Sequence record: NC_047979.1
Length of the DNA stretch: 64,000 nucleotides
Strand: one strand, 5' to 3'
Origin: Escherichia phage Gostya9
Shown: piece after piece, positions 1 to 4,407 of the stretch
Numbering within the stretch: position 1 is the first letter of the stretch
Layout of the letters: each line of letters opens with the position of its first letter
Translations under genes and position numbers: made by a program
Notes under the pieces: generated by a model
The model's input: only the letters and a program-made list of their open reading frames with translations
What the model was told of the DNA's origin: nothing
The model's database searches: none

Positions 1-408
1 AATACAGTAACGTCTATTATTTTCCAGTTTAAGTCAAGGTGACTTAGTGGTTATGCCCTGCGGTATACTGGGGACTCGGTTAGGTTAGGGTCATGACTTC
101 CTACCTTTTTGCTGCTACTCAACAGGAGTTATCGCGAATTACCTGTGCTATTGTGCACCATTAGTGGCATCTCTCATGCCAGCATTTCCCACTTTGTGGA
201 TAGTTTGAAAAACTACTCCGATATGGAGGGAGAACTTCACTATCCTAGAATACCTTCTAAAGTTCTTCTTTAGCCTGGACATAGTTAAATCGTAATAAAA
301 CTATTCAGCAGACTGGTTGGTTAGCCTGGAACCAACTACCGCGTGGTTTAGGCAGTGCGCAACTAACCTCGGAAGCTTTTACGTTAAAAGCACCAGTTAT
401 CCAGTTCT

Positions 409-480
409 TACCGATCGTAGGATTCGAACCTACATCTTCCACCAGTTACGGCTTGATAATACCGTTTATACTAGATCGGC
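409..480 (-). tRNA. tRNA-like element (possibly degenerate tRNA or pseudo-tRNA); anticodon not assignable
   Basis: Minus-strand sequence GCCGATC...GTAGG-TTCGAAT-CCTAC-GATCGGT-A gives a canonical T-arm (5-bp stem, TTCGAAT loop) and a 7-bp acceptor stem with G1-U71 and discriminator A. The 40 nt between them do not fold into standard D and anticodon arms by hand (only an ACGG/CCGT 4-bp stem with a 10-nt loop). It lies directly downstream of an early-type promoter at 557-585. Confidence 0.4.
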
Positions 481-556
481 AGTGTTACTACATAAGTGAT
501 TTCCACACCCCACTATTTATAACTTAGAGAAGAATTACTCTCTAATTTATGAATAT

Positions 557-585: not shown

Positions 586-1036
586 ATGAATTTTTAGAAA
601 ACTCGCTAGCAATCAAGGCGGCTGTTTTACCATCATAACGCCCTGGAAATTCTGCCTTAATAGTTTTCATTAAGAGAGCTTTGGTAATGCCTGGGTTTAG
701 TTTAACTAATTCTGCAAAGTATTTACGAATTTCAGTATCAGATAACTGAGGAGGCAGATACTCCTGCAACCACTTATTTAGAATGTATTCATACTGAGCG
801 GACTGCAAGCTATAACTATCAAGATCTTGACCATGAAGTTTAGCTTTCATTTGGTTAATGCTTTTTAGTTGAGCTTTGAGATAAGACACAAATTGTTCAG
901 AAGTGATGAAATCTTTATCAATACGCTGAAGATCCCCGATTATGGTCTGGTAGCTTTTAGCGACTTCTTTATCAGAACCATTAAACTTAGAATCCTGCAA
1001 AGCTCTACGCAAAACAGCTAAAATATTCTCTTCCAT
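569..1036 (-). CDS. hypothetical protein (155 aa)
   Basis: ORF with ATG start at 1036 whose ATG overlaps the TAA of the upstream small ORF (TAATG). No recognisable motif. Confidence 0.6.
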   Translation of the reverse strand: MEENILAVLRRALQDSKFNGSDKEVAKSYQTIIGDLQRIDKDFITSEQFVSYLKAQLKSINQMKAKLHGQDLDSYSLQSAQYEYILNKWLQEYLPPQLSDTEIRKYFAELVKLNPGITKALLMKTIKAEFPGRYDGKTAALIASEFSKNSFAKCL

Positions 1037-1206
1037 TATTTCATCCCCAATGCTTGGTTGAAAGATTGTTCTGTCATAACTGCTGAGACTTTGGCGAAAT
1101 CAAACTTTTTAGGGTTCGTAGTGATCTCAGCAACGTTGGAAGTTTTAACAGTTTTCGTAGTACGAATACCGCGAGTGTTAACACCAATGACGACCAAGTT
1201 TTTCAT
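1036..1206 (-). CDS. small hypothetical protein (56 aa, below the 60-aa ORF-track threshold)
   Basis: ATG at 1206-1204 preceded by GAGAGGAAG RBS and the promoter at 1238-1266. Translates MKNLVVIGVNTRGIRTTKTVKTSNVAEITTNPKKFDFAKVSAVMTEQSFNQALGMK. Its stop overlaps the next ATG. Confidence 0.45.
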   Translation of the reverse strand: MKNLVVIGVNTRGIRTTKTVKTSNVAEITTNPKKFDFAKVSAVMTEQSFNQALGMK

Positions 1207-1237
1207 ATTTCGCTTCCTCTCATTAATTTATGAAAGT

Positions 1238-1266
1238 ATTATACAGAAGTTTAAGTATTTAAGCAA
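1238..1266 (-). promoter_or_regulatory. sigma70-type early promoter (TTGCTT-N17-TATAAT)
   Basis: Minus strand TTGCTT, 17-bp spacer, TATAAT, followed by the CATAAATT box and an RBS. Confidence 0.5.
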
Positions 1267-1281
1267 ATAAATTTTTAAGTT

Positions 1282-1731
1282 TTAAGTTTTAGTGACAGCA
1301 GGCTTATAAAATGTATGCCCCTTAATCTTAGTTGTTTTCTTAAACTTCTTTGTCCAGTACGGTTTATCTTTACCACTATGGAAGTATAAGGCTCCATGTG
1401 TAGGATCTTGTGGTAAATCAACGTAGTATATCACTCTAGCTAAATTCTTGGCGGTTTGCCAAGCCTCATCGGTTTTATCAACTTTTGGTCTCTTAGATAC
1501 CCAAGAGAACTGGTTAGACTGATATACTACTTTACAGTAGGAATCTGGGAATTTACCGGAGTTTACACGGTTTTTAGTAACATGTGCAATCGCCGTCATT
1601 CCCTTTATGCCCTCACCACGACTTTCGAAATAGATATTTTTAGCAATGCAATCTATTTCTTTTGCATCGTGCGATGCCTGACTACTAAAGCTGAAGGTAA
1701 GGGCAGCTACTAAAAGCAAAGCTGCCTTCAT
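1282..1731 (-). CDS. secreted cell-wall hydrolase, SleB-like (Hydrolase_2 family) with N-terminal signal peptide
   Basis: MKAALLLVAALTFSFSSQAS signal-like N-terminus, then NIYFESRGE...AIAHVTKNR..YCKVVYQ..QFSW motifs typical of SleB/CwlJ-type hydrolases. ATG at 1731 has a GGAG RBS; the track start at 1749 is 6 codons upstream. Confidence 0.6.
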   Translation of the reverse strand: MKAALLLVAALTFSFSSQASHDAKEIDCIAKNIYFESRGEGIKGMTAIAHVTKNRVNSGKFPDSYCKVVYQSNQFSWVSKRPKVDKTDEAWQTAKNLARVIYYVDLPQDPTHGALYFHSGKDKPYWTKKFKKTTKIKGHTFYKPAVTKT

Positions 1732-1736
1732 TCTTT

Positions 1737-2054
1737 TTACTCCTGCCAATCGTATTCAATACGATTGGGGTTTTCTTTGTATCCCAAGTCAAGCAAATCA
1801 TTACGCATAGTTTGCTTAGCTACGGGATTCGAGGTTACTAGTACCACTTTCTTTGGTCTCTGCCCAAATTCTAAGAGTAAACGAAGAATTTGATAACCTT
1901 CCATACCATCTACAGCCAAATCGTTGTCGAAATAAACAAAATGGCCAGTGGTATCAGTCTTATTCAGAAACTCAACAGCGGCTTCTGGGGTTCGAATGAT
2001 AATGTCCATTCCGTGAAGATTACGCACATCATCAATCAAAATATGAAAAGTCAT
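1737..2054 (-). CDS. stand-alone receiver (REC)-like domain protein, putative
   Basis: 105 aa with REC-like landmarks: ILIDDV (acidic pair), VYFDNDL (acceptor-Asp position), VVLVTSNP (Thr), then Lys. Motif-level only. RBS GAGG; promoter at 2084-2112. Confidence 0.4.
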   Translation of the reverse strand: MTFHILIDDVRNLHGMDIIIRTPEAAVEFLNKTDTTGHFVYFDNDLAVDGMEGYQILRLLLEFGQRPKKVVLVTSNPVAKQTMRNDLLDLGYKENPNRIEYDWQE

Positions 2055-2083
2055 AATAGCCTCGTTTCACCAATTTAAAATAT

Positions 2084-2112
2084 ATTATACAGAAAACTTA
2101 ATAAATTAGCAA
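2084..2112 (-). promoter_or_regulatory. sigma70-type early promoter (TTGCTA-N17-TATAAT)
   Basis: Minus strand TTGCTA, 17-bp spacer, TATAAT, about 30 nt upstream of the ATG at 2054. Confidence 0.5.
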
Positions 2113-2495
2113 ATACATTTTTAAATTGTGAAACTAGTAAACCGATAAACAGCCTAGGGGCGCCACAGGCCATATCTTATGAGCCATGTACCTTTGATCT
2201 AGGGTTTGAATCATCAACGAATACTTTGCATCTTTTAGCTTTAGAAGTTTAGAAGTTTGAGTTCTTTAAACTTTTCAGCTTTCATACTTAAATGTTGATC
2301 TTTGAAGTTGTGTCGGTAATATCAACGACGCTTTGTTTTTACGTGTCAGATTAAATGTCTGATGTAATAAACATAATCTCCAATAGATTATACTTTATAG
2401 TATGGTCAGCGGTCTTATTTAACCTCGTATTTCAACCGCTGCTGCGAGGTAAGATGCTTGGGCTTTCGTCTACCGATTTACTAGCTTTTAAATTA

Positions 2496-3134
2496 TTACT
2501 CTACTTCAATGAAAGTAGAGGCATTGGACTCAGACAGAACAAAGTCAACATTAGTTGCAAAGTCCTGGTATTCTTCGTCGTGCTGCTTGATCAGCTTTTC
2601 CAGCTCCAGCGGATCAATCAAGAATGGGGTATTCTTGAGTTCCAACAGGTTGAGCTGCATTTTAACTTCATCTTCGGAAGTTTTCTTATCGCGGGTAGCC
2701 ATGCTATCCTGCAAACGCTCATATTTAGCATCAAACTGTGCTTTCTGCGTATTAAACTTAACCGTAGCGGCATGGAACTGCTTACGCATATTAGCCAGCA
2801 ACTGAGCTTTAAGTTCCATAGAACGTTTAGCTTCAATTGCTTCTGCAACAGTCATTTTACGAGAACCAATCTCAACGATTGTTTCCGCATTGCTCTTAAT
2901 CAATGCTGCTTTGATACGATCACGTTGGGACAGCATATCTAGTAGGGATTGGAAATCTGTCTTAATACGATTAGACAGATCTTCTACTTCGATTGCGGCA
3001 CCAACTACAACCTGGTTTTTATCCTTACCTTCACCAACAGCGATCAGAAGCTGTTGTTCAGTAGCTTTACGGATTTTAGCTTCCAGAGATTTGATGGTTG
3101 CCAGAGCACGAGTTTTAGAGATACGAGTGGTCAC
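2496..3134 (-). CDS. hypothetical protein (212 aa), probable GTG start
   Basis: Long ORF with AAGGAAG RBS 7 nt upstream of GTG at 3134 and no in-frame ATG nearby. Charged, coiled-coil-like composition. Confidence 0.5.
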   Translation of the reverse strand: MTTRISKTRALATIKSLEAKIRKATEQQLLIAVGEGKDKNQVVVGAAIEVEDLSNRIKTDFQSLLDMLSQRDRIKAALIKSNAETIVEIGSRKMTVAEAIEAKRSMELKAQLLANMRKQFHAATVKFNTQKAQFDAKYERLQDSMATRDKKTSEDEVKMQLNLLELKNTPFLIDPLELEKLIKQHDEEYQDFATNVDFVLSESNASTFIEVE

Positions 3135-3186
3135 TGTTTCTTCCTTACATGAAGTTTAAGGTTTGAATTTGTTTAAAGTTGGTCTA

Positions 3187-3369
3187 TTACAGACCCATTG
3201 CCAGTAAGGTACGCAGAACAGTATCTTTACTATTATCAATTTTAGGATTAGCACGATTTAGCAGATCAAAGATTTTCTGGACACCTGATTGACGTTCAGC
3301 CATACGACGGATACCCAGATTACGAGTAGCTTTCTTACCATTTTTACGAACATTTTTAGATACTGGCAT
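3187..3369 (-). CDS. small basic hypothetical protein (60 aa)
   Basis: ATG-initiated ORF immediately downstream of the promoter at 3411-3439; Lys/Arg-rich. Confidence 0.45.
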   Translation of the reverse strand: MPVSKNVRKNGKKATRNLGIRRMAERQSGVQKIFDLLNRANPKIDNSKDTVLRTLLAMGL

Positions 3370-3410
3370 ATTTGTTTTCCTTTTATTGTTTTCTCAAATT
3401 TATGAAATAT

Positions 3411-3439
3411 ATTATACAGAATTTTGGAGCCGGAAGCAA
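3411..3439 (-). promoter_or_regulatory. sigma70-type early promoter (TTGCTT-N17-TATAAT)
   Basis: Minus strand TTGCTT, 17-bp spacer, TATAAT, CATAAATTT box. Confidence 0.5.
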
Positions 3440-3440
3440 A

Positions 3441-4142
3441 TCAAATTTTCATTTTTTCGATCATAGCTGCAACACAATAGCTCTCAACTAAGGCATCGAA
3501 TGCTGGGTCGTGCTTAACCGGATATATCCCGTAACGAATGGTGTCCATCTTCTCCATTTTAGCTATTGCCCAGCTAATACCTTCGGTCTCTAGAGCCTTA
3601 TAACTGTATCCAGCTTGCATCCAGAGATTACGAAGGGATCGAACATTACCCAAATTCCAGAATTTCCACGGAACTATTTCTTCATTGGTTCCAGCATGGA
3701 AAGTGTTTGCAGAGTAGATAGTCATATCAAACTCTGGGCCATTGCCATAATACAAAGCATTTTCGCCTAGAGCCAATTCCATAATGTTTTTAGCCATAGA
3801 ATAAGCTGCATAGTTAGAGCCGAGCTTATTAGTACAGTGATGTTTACCATCTTGAAAAGCAATCAGCTTTGGATTACGCTCGTTCATAGCTTCCATAATG
3901 TGGAAAGCAGACGGACTATTTTTAGCTTGATCCATCCAGAATGCTAGAGTAGATGCTGTAACTTTGGCACCAGAATTAAGCTGATCCTGCACATCCAAAG
4001 TAACAAACACTAGATCAGGGTCTTTATCAATTCCGTGCATAGCCACAAAAGCGAAAGAAGGCATTACGATATGAGTAGTACCACAATCTCCCGGAGTTCC
4101 TAGAGATTCAATATCTAACATACCAAATGGTTTTACTTTCAT
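3441..4142 (-). CDS. putative 3'-5' exonuclease (DEDD / DnaQ-like fold)
   Basis: N-terminal FGMLDIESLG resembles DEDD exonuclease motif I (D-x-E); 233 aa. Motif-level inference only. Confidence 0.45.
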   Translation of the reverse strand: MKVKPFGMLDIESLGTPGDCGTTHIVMPSFAFVAMHGIDKDPDLVFVTLDVQDQLNSGAKVTASTLAFWMDQAKNSPSAFHIMEAMNERNPKLIAFQDGKHHCTNKLGSNYAAYSMAKNIMELALGENALYYGNGPEFDMTIYSANTFHAGTNEEIVPWKFWNLGNVRSLRNLWMQAGYSYKALETEGISWAIAKMEKMDTIRYGIYPVKHDPAFDALVESYCVAAMIEKMKI

Positions 4143-4170
4143 AACTTATCCTTTATTGTGTAGAAAACTA

Positions 4171-4407
4171 TTAAAGAGCTGTCTCTTTAATAGACTCCCA
4201 CTTCTTGGGGTCTTTAAAACCAGGAAGCATATCTTCACTAACATCCCAGTTTTCTTCCGTAGAAAAGTCTGGCCATTCATTCCAACTATCTTCCAGCTCT
4301 TCATACCAGGTATCCATTACCTCATGACTAGAAAGTCGTGTATAATCTCTAGCGGATTTATGAGTGCTAGCACGGTTAAAATCATTCTTTGCTACAAAAT
4401 TACGCAT
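4171..4407 (-). CDS. small acidic Trp-rich hypothetical protein (78 aa)
   Basis: ATG at 4407 with GGAG RBS; strongly acidic (EELEDSWNEWPDFSTEENWDVSED). Confidence 0.5.
   Translation of the reverse strand: MRNFVAKNDFNRASTHKSARDYTRLSSHEVMDTWYEELEDSWNEWPDFSTEENWDVSEDMLPGFKDPKKWESIKETAL

What the first reader, a model, noticed from the sequence alone, without database searches (positions are those of the whole stretch)
1282..2054. Secreted SleB-like cell-wall hydrolase paired with a stand-alone receiver-domain protein
A signal-peptide-bearing SleB/CwlJ-family hydrolase is co-transcribed with a 105-aa protein carrying receiver-domain landmarks (DD, D, T, K) and no output domain. A Sec-exported muralytic enzyme in the early region may act in infection or superinfection rather than lysis, and a phage REC-only protein could act as a phosphate sink or decoy for host two-component signalling.
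Basis: partly seen in the sequence, partly recalled or inferred. Interest (0 to 1): 0.45.

Follow-up and report, generated by a model that had tools for sequence, protein, structure and literature searches.

The report
T5 SleB-like lysin plus cREC gene
These are two already-catalogued early genes of a T5-like coliphage, an exported SleB-type cell-wall hydrolase and a small divergent receiver-fold (cREC) protein, that share one short transcript but do not look like a functional pair or a decoy for host two-component signalling.

Summary
On the minus strand, 2054..1737 encodes a 105-aa protein and 1731..1282 a 149-aa protein. They are 5 nt apart, with an AGGAG that abuts the upstream stop codon. 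The window is a Tequintavirus (about 96.5% DNA identity to DT57C), and the genes are T5.084 and T5.083.

T5.083 is a Pfam Hydrolase_2/SleB catalytic domain (E 2e-25; predicted fold matches SleB 4F55/4FET). It has a conserved Sec-type signal peptide, an invariant catalytic Glu and two invariant Cys.

- There is no PF00072 hit.
- The receiver lysine is not conserved.
- Helices alpha1 and alpha5 are missing.
- It carries extra invariant residues (R11, D17, R21, D45, N76).

cREC proteins are widespread stand-alone phage proteins, predicted only computationally to be cyclic-phosphate phosphoesterases.

The adjacency is lineage-specific synteny. It is kept in Markadamsvirinae, separated in phage My1, SleB-only in Klebsiella phage KPN4, and absent from 28 of 29 other cREC locus groups.

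The two-component decoy reading is not supported. Both genes are already annotated, so interest is low to moderate. Neither function has been tested experimentally.

The parts
1737..2054 (-). T5.084 homologue: 105-aa stand-alone cREC (divergent receiver-fold) protein, stop codon included
1282..1731 (-). T5.083 homologue: 149-aa exported SleB-type (Hydrolase_2) peptidoglycan hydrolase, stop codon included. The mechanical ORF start at TTG 1749 is probably not used.
   Evidence: PF07486 at E 2e-25. Sequence match to SleB 4F55/4FET at E 3e-8, with FESRGE aligned to GESRGE. Foldseek TM 0.71-0.80 to SleB. Homologues start MKAALLL.
1675..1731 (-). Predicted Sec signal peptide of the hydrolase (residues 1-19, MKAALLLVAALTFSFSSQA|S)
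   Evidence: A positive n-region, an 11-residue hydrophobic core and small residues at -3/-1. Sequence-divergent homologues keep the same architecture (SHA|T, AYA|T, VQA|Q, VSA|S, AKA|N). This is a heuristic; SignalP was not run.
1740..1744 (-). Shine-Dalgarno AGGAG for the hydrolase, directly abutting the cREC stop codon (TAA 1739..1737)
   Evidence: Read directly from the sequence. There is an 8-nt spacer to ATG 1731.
1746..1768 (-). 10-bp hairpin inside the last codons of the cREC ORF, immediately 5' of the hydrolase SD
   Evidence: Inverted repeat. MFE -12.5 kcal/mol against -3.7 +/- 2.2 for synonymous recodings (fraction at least as stable 0.0005). A hairpin is present in the AAS21 and SelmaRatti tails, whose sequences differ from the window's, and is absent in My1, where no hydrolase follows.
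2084..2112 (-). Sigma-70 early promoter (TTGCTA-17 nt-TATAAT) driving the two-gene unit
   Evidence: Consensus scan, 10 of 12 matches. A promoter is annotated at the equivalent place in T5 AY543070.
1238..1266 (-). Next promoter (TTGCTT-17 nt-TATAAT), equivalent to T5 P-D/E 33. It marks the downstream boundary of the unit and serves the T5.082 homologue.
   Evidence: Read from the sequence. Annotated as 'promoter P-D/E 33' in T5. The scan did not list it because the -35 hexamer matches only 3 of 6.

Best explanation
This is a bicistronic early transcription unit of a T5-like phage. It carries two accessory genes that work in different cell compartments and are probably functionally independent.

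(1) T5.083 is made as a precursor with a cleavable Sec signal peptide and exported to the periplasm. There its SleB-type catalytic domain (catalytic Glu in FESRGE, probably stabilised by a Cys28-Cys66 disulfide) cleaves peptidoglycan glycan strands as a lytic transglycosylase. It most likely acts as an auxiliary muralytic activity supporting lysis, alongside the canonical T5 holin and L-Ala-D-Glu endopeptidase.

(2) T5.084 is a cytoplasmic, minimal receiver-fold protein of the cREC family. Its acidic pocket (D8, D9, D43-x-D45, T74, N76, plus R11, D17 and R21 on the loop that replaces alpha1) most likely binds Mg2+ and hydrolyses a phosphoester on a nucleotide-derived molecule or an RNA end. 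The chemistry would run through an aspartyl-phosphate, as in HAD phosphatases with their DxD motif. This would serve phage-host conflict rather than accepting phosphate from host kinases.

The hydrolase is translationally coupled to cREC: the SD abuts the cREC stop codon and a conserved hairpin lies just upstream.

Shown here: the identities, the folds, the conserved residues, the operon layout and the phylogenetic distribution. Inferred: export, the disulfide, the enzymatic activities, the substrates and the role in lysis.
For: Identity and context:
- The region is 96.5% identical to DT57C and homologous in 441 T5-like records. It is annotated as T5.083 and T5.084.

Hydrolase:
- PF07486 and a sequence match to SleB structures with the catalytic motif aligned.
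- Model pLDDT 91.8, with the only significant PDB fold hits being SleB.
- E36, C28 and C66 are invariant in 37 diverse homologues, and signal-peptide-like N-termini are kept despite sequence turnover.
- A signal-peptide SleB-like protein in phage CB7 was reported toxic on expression in E. coli, and a homologue in phage CR3 has been implicated in lysis (PMC7344957).

cREC:
- PF20274 and a receiver fold.
- Family-wide invariants are D8, D9, R11, D17, R21, D43, D45, G53 and N76, without the receiver Lys.
- The family holds more than 4,600 90%-identity clusters, and nearly all listed members are about 100 aa and stand-alone.
- Contexts are phage early or accessory regions next to methylases, antirestriction, Tad3 and AbiEii-like genes.

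Operon.

Independence of the two genes:
- In My1 they are separated by five genes.
- The KPN4 locus has the hydrolase without a cREC gene.
- 28 of 29 non-T5 cREC locus groups have no SleB-like ORF within about 5 kb.
Against: - No experiment exists for either protein in the searchable literature.
- The cREC enzymatic function is a purely computational proposal (PMC7824862). The NAD+/RNA-ligase associations that motivated it were not seen among the stand-alone relatives sampled here.
- An active muralytic enzyme exported early should be harmful unless it is restrained, and no restraint mechanism was identified.
- No holin-like gene is adjacent.
- The adjacency is strictly kept across Markadamsvirinae, and the junction hairpin looks selected. 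One unrelated phage contig (L056) also has a SleB-like gene next to a truncated cREC gene. Some functional link therefore cannot be excluded.
Confidence: 0.6

Rival explanations
1. The REC-only protein is a phosphate sink or decoy that intercepts phosphoryl groups from host histidine kinases and so rewires host two-component signalling during infection.
Against: Pfam reports no Response_reg hit at E <= 1. The position equivalent to CheY K109 is N95 and is not conserved, and K93 is present in only 19% of the family. The model has no alpha1, which I recall as the kinase DHp-docking helix (not checked here), and no alpha5. Extra invariant residues (R11, D17, R21, D45, N76) point to a remodelled active site. 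The family's describers report that it never occurs with histidine kinases (PMC7824862). Homologues occur in phages of very different hosts, which argues against a specific kinase partner.
Confidence: 0.05
2. The two genes form a functional module. For example, cREC processes a phosphorylated envelope or nucleotide metabolite tied to wall turnover, or cREC translation gates the dose and timing of the exported hydrolase.
For: Adjacency is kept in the sampled Markadamsvirinae loci that carry cREC; a homing endonuclease gene is inserted between the two genes in Ace, and the gap is also larger in L022. The SD abuts the stop codon, and the junction hairpin is more stable than synonymous recodings (fraction 0.0005). 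A hairpin is also present in the AAS21 and SelmaRatti tails and is lost in My1, where the genes are apart. One unrelated contig (L056) has a SleB-like gene beside a cREC remnant.
Against: The predicted compartments differ (periplasm against cytoplasm). In My1 the genes are separated by five genes. Sugarlandvirus KPN4 keeps the hydrolase at this locus with no cREC. 28 of 29 other cREC locus groups lack any SleB-like ORF nearby. More than 1,200 phage records carry SleB-like genes against about 490 with cREC. The L056 SleB-like protein has no signal peptide and its cREC lacks the N-terminal half. One such co-occurrence among about 30 loci is near my rough chance expectation (not computed).
Confidence: 0.12
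3. The hydrolase is not a cleaved secreted enzyme but a SAR-type (signal-anchor-release) endolysin, or a periplasmic factor with an early non-lytic role such as wall remodelling or superinfection exclusion.
For: The N-terminal segment is Ala/Ser-rich (AALLLVAALTFSFSSQAS), loosely like SAR domains. The gene is transcribed from an early promoter, far from the holin-endolysin cassette. From my own knowledge, T5 already has a dedicated endolysin, and it makes an early lipoprotein (Llp) for receptor blocking, which shows that T5 does deploy early periplasmic factors.
Against: The uncharged hydrophobic core is only 11-15 residues, short for a membrane span, and is followed by a conserved small-x-small cleavage motif in divergent homologues. 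There is no Cys in the N-terminal segment of the kind that, as I recall, some SAR lysins use. Homologous signal-peptide SleB-like proteins in Vequintavirinae are linked to lysis and sit next to a holin candidate. There is no evidence for any exclusion function.
Confidence: 0.15

Closest known systems
Bacillus spore cortex-lytic enzyme SleB, catalytic domain (PDB 4F55, 4FET; Pfam PF07486 Hydrolase_2)
   Same: The catalytic domain has the same fold (Foldseek TM 0.71-0.80, 28-31% identity). The ExRGE motif with the catalytic Glu is aligned. Both are exported proteins.
   Different: T5.083 has no N-terminal peptidoglycan-binding domain. It scores far below the SleB equivalog cutoff (TIGR02869, 50 bits against 236.5). 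It has two invariant Cys that are absent from the aligned Bacillus SleB sequences. Its host wall has no muramic delta-lactam, so the substrate specificity must differ.
Signal-peptide SleB-like 'cell wall hydrolases' of Gram-negative phages, such as Pectobacterium phage CB7 gp83 and Cronobacter phage CR3_087 (Vequintavirinae)
   Same: These are single-domain Hydrolase_2 proteins with a signal peptide in phages of Enterobacterales. They are found alongside other muralytic enzymes. CB7 gp83 was toxic when expressed in E. coli, and CR3_087 has been implicated in lysis (PMC7344957). Vequintavirinae-type hits are about 40% identical.
   Different: In CB7 the gene overlaps a candidate class II holin. 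In T5-like phages there is no adjacent membrane protein, and the neighbour is cREC instead.
cREC (cyclic-phosphate processing receiver) family, PF20274, defined by Iyer et al. 2021 (PMC7824862)
   Same: The Pfam match is above the gathering score. The receiver fold, the conserved aspartates, the absence of any histidine kinase and the phage setting all agree. NCBI already names T5-like orthologues 'cyclic-phosphate processing receiver domain-containing protein'.
   Different: The defining paper stressed linkage to NAD+/ADP-ribose-processing enzymes, WYL domains and RNA ligases. Neither the T5 locus nor 29 sampled stand-alone relatives show those neighbours. The nearest RNA-related gene is an Rv2179c-like 3'-5' exoribonuclease 1.4 kb upstream.
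Canonical two-component receiver domains (CheY, Spo0F; PF00072)
   Same: It has the same flavodoxin-like (beta-alpha) fold. The acidic residues after beta1 and beta3 and the Thr after beta4 sit at equivalent positions.
   Different: It has no conserved Lys after beta5, no alpha1 and no alpha5. It has an additional Asp at D+2, plus conserved Arg/Asp/Arg on the beta1-beta2 loop and Asn after beta4. It has no kinase partner and gives no PF00072 hit.

Membership tests
Pfam PF07486 Hydrolase_2 (SleB/CwlJ catalytic domain) | Sequence match above the curated gathering score over the whole domain | tested here: met
   89.7 bits against a cutoff of 27, covering profile positions 1-100 of 100.
Pfam PF07486 Hydrolase_2 (SleB/CwlJ catalytic domain) | Catalytic glutamate in the E-x-R-G-E motif | tested here: met
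   FESRGE aligns to GESRGE of SleB 4F55/4FET. E36 is invariant in 37 homologues. That this Glu is the catalytic residue is from my recollection of the SleB structure papers.
Pfam PF07486 Hydrolase_2 (SleB/CwlJ catalytic domain) | SleB catalytic-domain fold | tested here: met
   Model pLDDT 91.8. The only PDB hits with E < 1e-3 are SleB 4F55/4FET, with TM 0.71-0.80 normalised to the target.
Spore cortex-lytic enzyme SleB proper (TIGR02869 equivalog) | Full-length architecture with an N-terminal peptidoglycan-binding domain and a score above the equivalog cutoff | tested here: not met
   50.3 bits against a cutoff of 236.5. Only the C-terminal catalytic part (profile 79-201) matches. It is therefore SleB-like, not an SleB orthologue.
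Spore cortex-lytic enzyme SleB proper (TIGR02869 equivalog) | Lytic transglycosylase activity dependent on muramic delta-lactam | not testable with these tools
   Needs an enzyme assay on sacculi and muropeptide analysis.
Sec/SPase I secreted proteins | Tripartite signal peptide: positive n-region, 7-15 residue hydrophobic core, small residues at -3/-1 | tested here: met
   K2; AALLLVAALTF; S-Q-A|S. The same architecture recurs with different residues in divergent homologues, and none of the listed T5-like homologues has a lipobox. This is a heuristic only; SignalP was not available.
SAR endolysins | Uncleaved, weakly hydrophobic N-terminal transmembrane segment of about 18-20 residues that is released from the membrane | tested here: inconclusive
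   The uncharged run is 15 residues with an 11-residue core, followed by a cleavage-type motif. This favours a cleaved signal peptide, but release against cleavage can only be settled experimentally.
cREC (PF20274) | Sequence match above the gathering score | tested here: met
   55.5 bits against a cutoff of 27. All homologues listed carry PF20274.
cREC (PF20274) | Receiver fold with the catalytic aspartates retained | tested here: met
cREC (PF20274) | No association with histidine kinases; linkage to NAD+/ADPR-processing, cyclic-nucleotide-sensing or RNA-repair genes | tested here: inconclusive
   No kinase appears in any of about 30 contexts. The expected NAD+/RNA-ligase partners are absent too, and the neighbours are heterogeneous.
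cREC (PF20274) | Hydrolysis of cyclic phosphate (cADPR or 2',3'-cyclic ends) | not testable with these tools
   This is a prediction only (PMC7824862). No experimental paper was found.
Canonical two-component receiver (PF00072 Response_reg) | Profile match to PF00072 | tested here: not met
   Pfam reports no hit at E <= 1. hhalign of the family profile against CheY gives a probability of only 29%.
Canonical two-component receiver (PF00072 Response_reg) | Conserved Lys after beta5 (CheY K109) | tested here: not met
   The equivalent position is N95, a variable column. K93 is Lys in only 19% of representatives.
Canonical two-component receiver (PF00072 Response_reg) | Five-helix (beta-alpha)5 topology including alpha1 (kinase docking) and alpha5 | tested here: not met
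   The model has strands at 4-7, 18-20, 39-42, 69-72 and 100-102 and only three helices (23-32, 53-62, 77-90). Residues 8-17 form a loop. The kinase-docking role of alpha1 is from my own knowledge.
Canonical two-component receiver (PF00072 Response_reg) | Phosphotransfer from a cognate histidine kinase | not testable with these tools
   Needs in vitro phosphotransfer profiling.

The most novel reading that the evidence does not exclude
T5.084 could be a working example, in a classical model phage, of a receiver fold converted into a small HAD-like (DxD) phosphohydrolase. It would either destroy a cyclic-phosphate or nucleotide-derived immune signal, or heal 2',3'-cyclic-phosphate RNA ends left by host anticodon nucleases. 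That would make it a new class of anti-defence enzyme, represented by thousands of stand-alone phage proteins. Its translation would additionally gate, through a conserved junction hairpin, the dose of a periplasmic lytic transglycosylase.
Probability: 0.2. Interest if true: 0.6.

Novelty: already known. Interest (0 to 1): 0.25.

Why it matters
Both genes are long-annotated parts of the T5 early region. T5.083 is annotated as 'putative cell wall hydrolase SleB'. T5.084 now gets the automatic name 'cyclic-phosphate processing receiver domain-containing protein'. Nothing new is found at the level of what they are.

Two questions remain open. First, why does a phage with a complete holin-endolysin cassette also export a second, SleB-type muralytic enzyme from an early promoter? 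Second, what do cREC proteins do? They form a very large family (more than 4,600 90%-identity clusters in this search) of about 100-aa phage proteins with no experimental characterisation. T5 and DT57C are genetically tractable, so T5.084 is a convenient entry point for testing the cREC prediction.

The practical correction for annotators is that this protein should not be treated as a two-component response regulator or decoy.

Tried and rejected
- Canonical receiver membership was rejected: there is no PF00072 hit, and the Lys, alpha1 and alpha5 are missing.
- PDB sequence search with the cREC profile found nothing meaningful (best E 1.2).
- Defence-system (PADLOC) and NCBIfam profiles gave no hit for cREC.
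- I looked for a conserved partner of stand-alone cREC genes in two ways. All-vs-all clustering of ORFs from 30 locus groups found no family shared beyond one phage clade. A Pfam scan of 147 neighbour ORFs found no family in more than 3 members.
- I looked for SleB next to cREC outside T5-like phages. Only L056 has it, with a truncated cREC and a SleB-like protein without a signal peptide. I treat this as near my rough chance expectation.
- Literature searches for T5.083, PF20274, 'cyclic-phosphate processing' and cREC with anti-defence terms returned only the defining paper or false hits.
- The search for related loci with the broad alignment A2 failed because it had no sufficiently conserved stretch. 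The afdb50 fold library was unavailable.
- The 'intein' annotation of the SelmaRatti cREC gene was examined. The N-terminal 170 residues look like an in-frame HNH homing endonuclease, not a typical intein. I did not pursue this.

Full report
**What is there**

The window is a T5-like siphovirus (Demerecviridae, Tequintavirus). Bases 1000-4200 are 96.5% identical to Escherichia phage DT57C, and homologous sequence occurs in 441 phage records, almost all T5-like phages of Salmonella and Escherichia. The two ORFs of the finding lie on the minus strand. They correspond to T5.084 (2054..1737, 105 aa) and T5.083 (149 aa) in the DT57C and T5 records.

The mechanical ORF list starts the second gene at TTG 1749. 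Several facts make ATG 1731 the real start:
- The listed T5-like homologues begin MKAALLL.
- DT57C annotates a 450-nt gene.
- An AGGAG at 1744..1740 lies 8 nt upstream of ATG 1731 (sequence).

With that start, the cREC stop codon (TAA, 1739..1737) and the hydrolase ATG are 5 nt apart, and the Shine-Dalgarno directly abuts the stop codon.

**Transcription unit**

A near-consensus sigma-70 promoter (TTGCTA, 17 nt, TATAAT) lies at 2112..2084, about 30 nt upstream of the cREC start. A second promoter-like sequence (TTGCTT, 17 nt, TATAAT) lies at 1266..1238, just past the hydrolase stop codon (read). The T5 reference record AY543070 independently annotates promoters at both equivalent places. The downstream one is named P-D/E 33. 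The two genes therefore form a short bicistronic early unit, and co-transcription as claimed is well supported.

**The hydrolase**

- Pfam gives PF07486 Hydrolase_2 over the entire profile (E 2.2e-25). PHROGs places it in an 'endolysin' family.
- It matches the solved catalytic domains of Bacillus cereus and B. anthracis SleB by sequence (E 3e-8). FESRGE aligns to the GESRGE motif that, as I recall from the SleB structure papers, carries the catalytic Glu.
- An AlphaFold model built on 37 homologues (pLDDT 91.8) finds SleB 4F55/4FET as its only significant PDB matches (TM 0.71-0.80).
- It is not an orthologue of spore SleB. Only the catalytic part matches, and the score is far below the TIGR02869 cutoff.

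The first 19 residues (MKAALLLVAALTFSFSSQA|S) have a basic n-region, an 11-residue hydrophobic core and small residues at -3/-1. Across about 70 homologues, down to 33% identity, the N-terminal sequence turns over but this architecture persists (SHA|T, AYA|T, VQA|Q, VSA|S, AKA|N and so on). Two cysteines (C28, C66) are invariant, while the aligned Bacillus SleB sequences lack them. I infer Sec export, cleavage by signal peptidase I and a periplasmic disulfide. SignalP could not be run, and the Cys-Cys distance could not be measured.

SleB-like domains occur in 1,277 phage records, mostly phages of Gram-negative hosts. In Vequintavirinae, a signal-peptide SleB-like protein (CB7_83) was reported toxic on expression in E. 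coli, it overlaps a candidate holin, and a homologue in phage CR3 has been implicated in lysis (PMC7344957). For T5-like phages the literature only notes a second 'endolysin' ORF far from the holin and asks which one is used (PMC11180984 and PMC3326045).

**The receiver-like protein**

The details differ from a signalling receiver, however:
- The model has five strands but only three helices. Residues 8-17, where alpha1 should be, form a loop, and there is no alpha5.
- In 140 representatives from an exhaustive search (214 clusters at E <= 1e-3, nearly all stand-alone proteins of about 100 aa), the conserved positions are D8, D9, R11, D17, R21, D43, H/N44, D45, L46, G47, G53, P67, T/S74, N76, P77, G91 and Y92.
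- Profile alignment to CheY equates D43 with D57, T74 with T87, and the receiver lysine K109 with N95, a variable column.

The family was defined computationally by Iyer et al. 2021. They state that it never occurs with histidine kinases, and they propose a phosphoesterase acting on cADPR or 2',3'-cyclic phosphates (PMC7824862). I found no experimental follow-up.

My mechanistic inference is as follows. The D43-x-D45 pair after beta3 resembles the DxD motif of HAD phosphatases, which as I recall share aspartyl-phosphate/Mg2+ chemistry with receivers. The Arg/Asp/Arg loop that replaces alpha1 could bind a phosphorylated small molecule or an RNA end. This fits hydrolysis of a phosphoester better than phosphotransfer from a kinase. 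From my own knowledge, kinases dock on alpha1, which is missing here.

**Are the two genes a pair?**

Within Markadamsvirinae the order cREC-hydrolase is kept. This holds in 25 IMG/VR loci and in DT57C, IrisVonRoten, SelmaRatti and Pantoea phage AAS21. In Ace a homing endonuclease gene is inserted between the two genes, and the gap is also larger in L022.

Outside that subfamily the linkage dissolves:
- In Pectobacterium phage My1 the two genes are about 2.8 kb and five genes apart (P0306).
- Klebsiella phage KPN4 (Sugarlandvirus) has the hydrolase at this locus directly after the upstream 'metallopeptidase' gene, with no cREC.
- Vibrio schizoT4 phages have cREC without the hydrolase.
- Of 29 other cREC locus groups from viral and genome collections, 28 have no SleB-like ORF within about 5 kb.
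- The exception, L056, has a SleB-like protein without a signal peptide next to a cREC that lacks its N-terminal half.

No other partner recurs either. Clustering neighbour ORFs finds nothing shared beyond one phage clade. A Pfam scan of 147 neighbour ORFs gives a heterogeneous mix typical of phage accessory regions: DNA methylases in 3, Rv2179c-like exoribonuclease in 2, and single cases of Tad3, AbiEii-like and other genes.

I conclude that the pair is lineage-specific synteny of two independent accessory genes that work in different compartments.

**One qualification**

The last codons of the cREC ORF form a 10-bp hairpin (1746-1768) ending 1 nt from the hydrolase SD. It is far more stable than synonymous recodings of the same peptide (fraction at least as stable 0.0005). 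A hairpin is also present in the AAS21 tail (0.03) and the SelmaRatti tail (0.11), although their sequences differ from the window's. It is absent in My1, where no hydrolase follows. This suggests that hydrolase translation is deliberately coupled to, or limited by, cREC translation. That is an expression-level link, not evidence of a shared biochemical function.

**Verdict**

- The identification of both families is correct and already present in public annotation. NCBI names several orthologues 'cyclic-phosphate processing receiver domain-containing protein'.
- The proposal that the REC protein is a decoy or phosphate sink for host two-component systems is not supported.
- The role of the exported hydrolase (auxiliary lysis enzyme against an early non-lytic role) remains undecided. 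I favour auxiliary lysis, by analogy with related signal-peptide SleB-like phage proteins.
- Novelty is low. The residual interest is that T5.084 offers a tractable model for the uncharacterised cREC family.

Noticed in passing
window 2055-2495 (minus strand), especially about 2140-2212: The 441-nt gene-free spacer between the T5.085 homologue and cREC folds much better than shuffles (z = -4.9). It contains a nested hairpin of about 55 nt (outer CCUAGG/CCUAGG stem, inner stem around UCAUAAGAUAU). The hairpin is conserved in AAS21 and My1 with compensatory changes: CUCAGG/CCUGAG in My1 and GAG/CUC for GGC/GCC in AAS21. There is no Rfam hit. In My1 the same spacer precedes the SleB-like gene instead of cREC.
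   Followed up: partly
window 1746-1768: A perfect 10-bp hairpin lies inside the 3' end of the cREC ORF, next to the hydrolase ribosome-binding site. It is more stable than synonymous recodings (fraction at least as stable 0.0005). It may be a translational-coupling or dosage element.
   Followed up: partly
window 3441-4142 (minus strand): The gene widely annotated as 'putative metallopeptidase' (T5.087 homologue) matches Pfam PF16473, the Rv2179c-like 3'-5' exoribonuclease domain (E 1.6e-7, above the cutoff). It starts with a DEDD-like DIES motif, so the peptidase name looks wrong. The same family appears near cREC in 2 of the 29 sampled non-T5 locus groups.
   Followed up: partly
window 408-481 (minus strand): A tRNA-like gene is called here (ARAGORN: tRNA-Ser, anticodon ACT; Rfam tRNA, 39 bits). 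By offset it falls in the region annotated in DT57C and T5 as 'RNAX, stable RNA with unknown functions', not as a tRNA.
   Followed up: no
L029 2485-3306 (SelmaRatti); L028 3323-3847 (Ace): Homing endonuclease genes cluster at this locus. Ace has one inserted between cREC and the hydrolase. SelmaRatti has another after the hydrolase, and its cREC gene is annotated 'intein-containing', but the N-terminal 170 residues look like an in-frame HNH endonuclease rather than a typical intein.
   Followed up: partly
L056 4483-5228: On an unrelated 28-kb viral contig, a SleB-like gene without a signal peptide lies immediately upstream of a cREC ORF that lacks the N-terminal DD half. This is the only co-occurrence found outside Demerecviridae.
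   Followed up: partly
L045 5004-5643; L046 4824-8480: One viral contig carries two tandem cREC paralogues. A 467-kb contig has a cREC domain at the N-terminus of a 1,218-aa ORF with no other recognisable Pfam domain.
   Followed up: no
window 4171-4407 and L033 3739-3885: A DUF7230 protein, a DEDD-type exonuclease and cREC co-occur within a few kb both in the window and on a distant 92-kb phage contig (L033), which also carries an ArdA-like antirestriction gene. This could be a loosely conserved accessory neighbourhood or chance.
   Followed up: no
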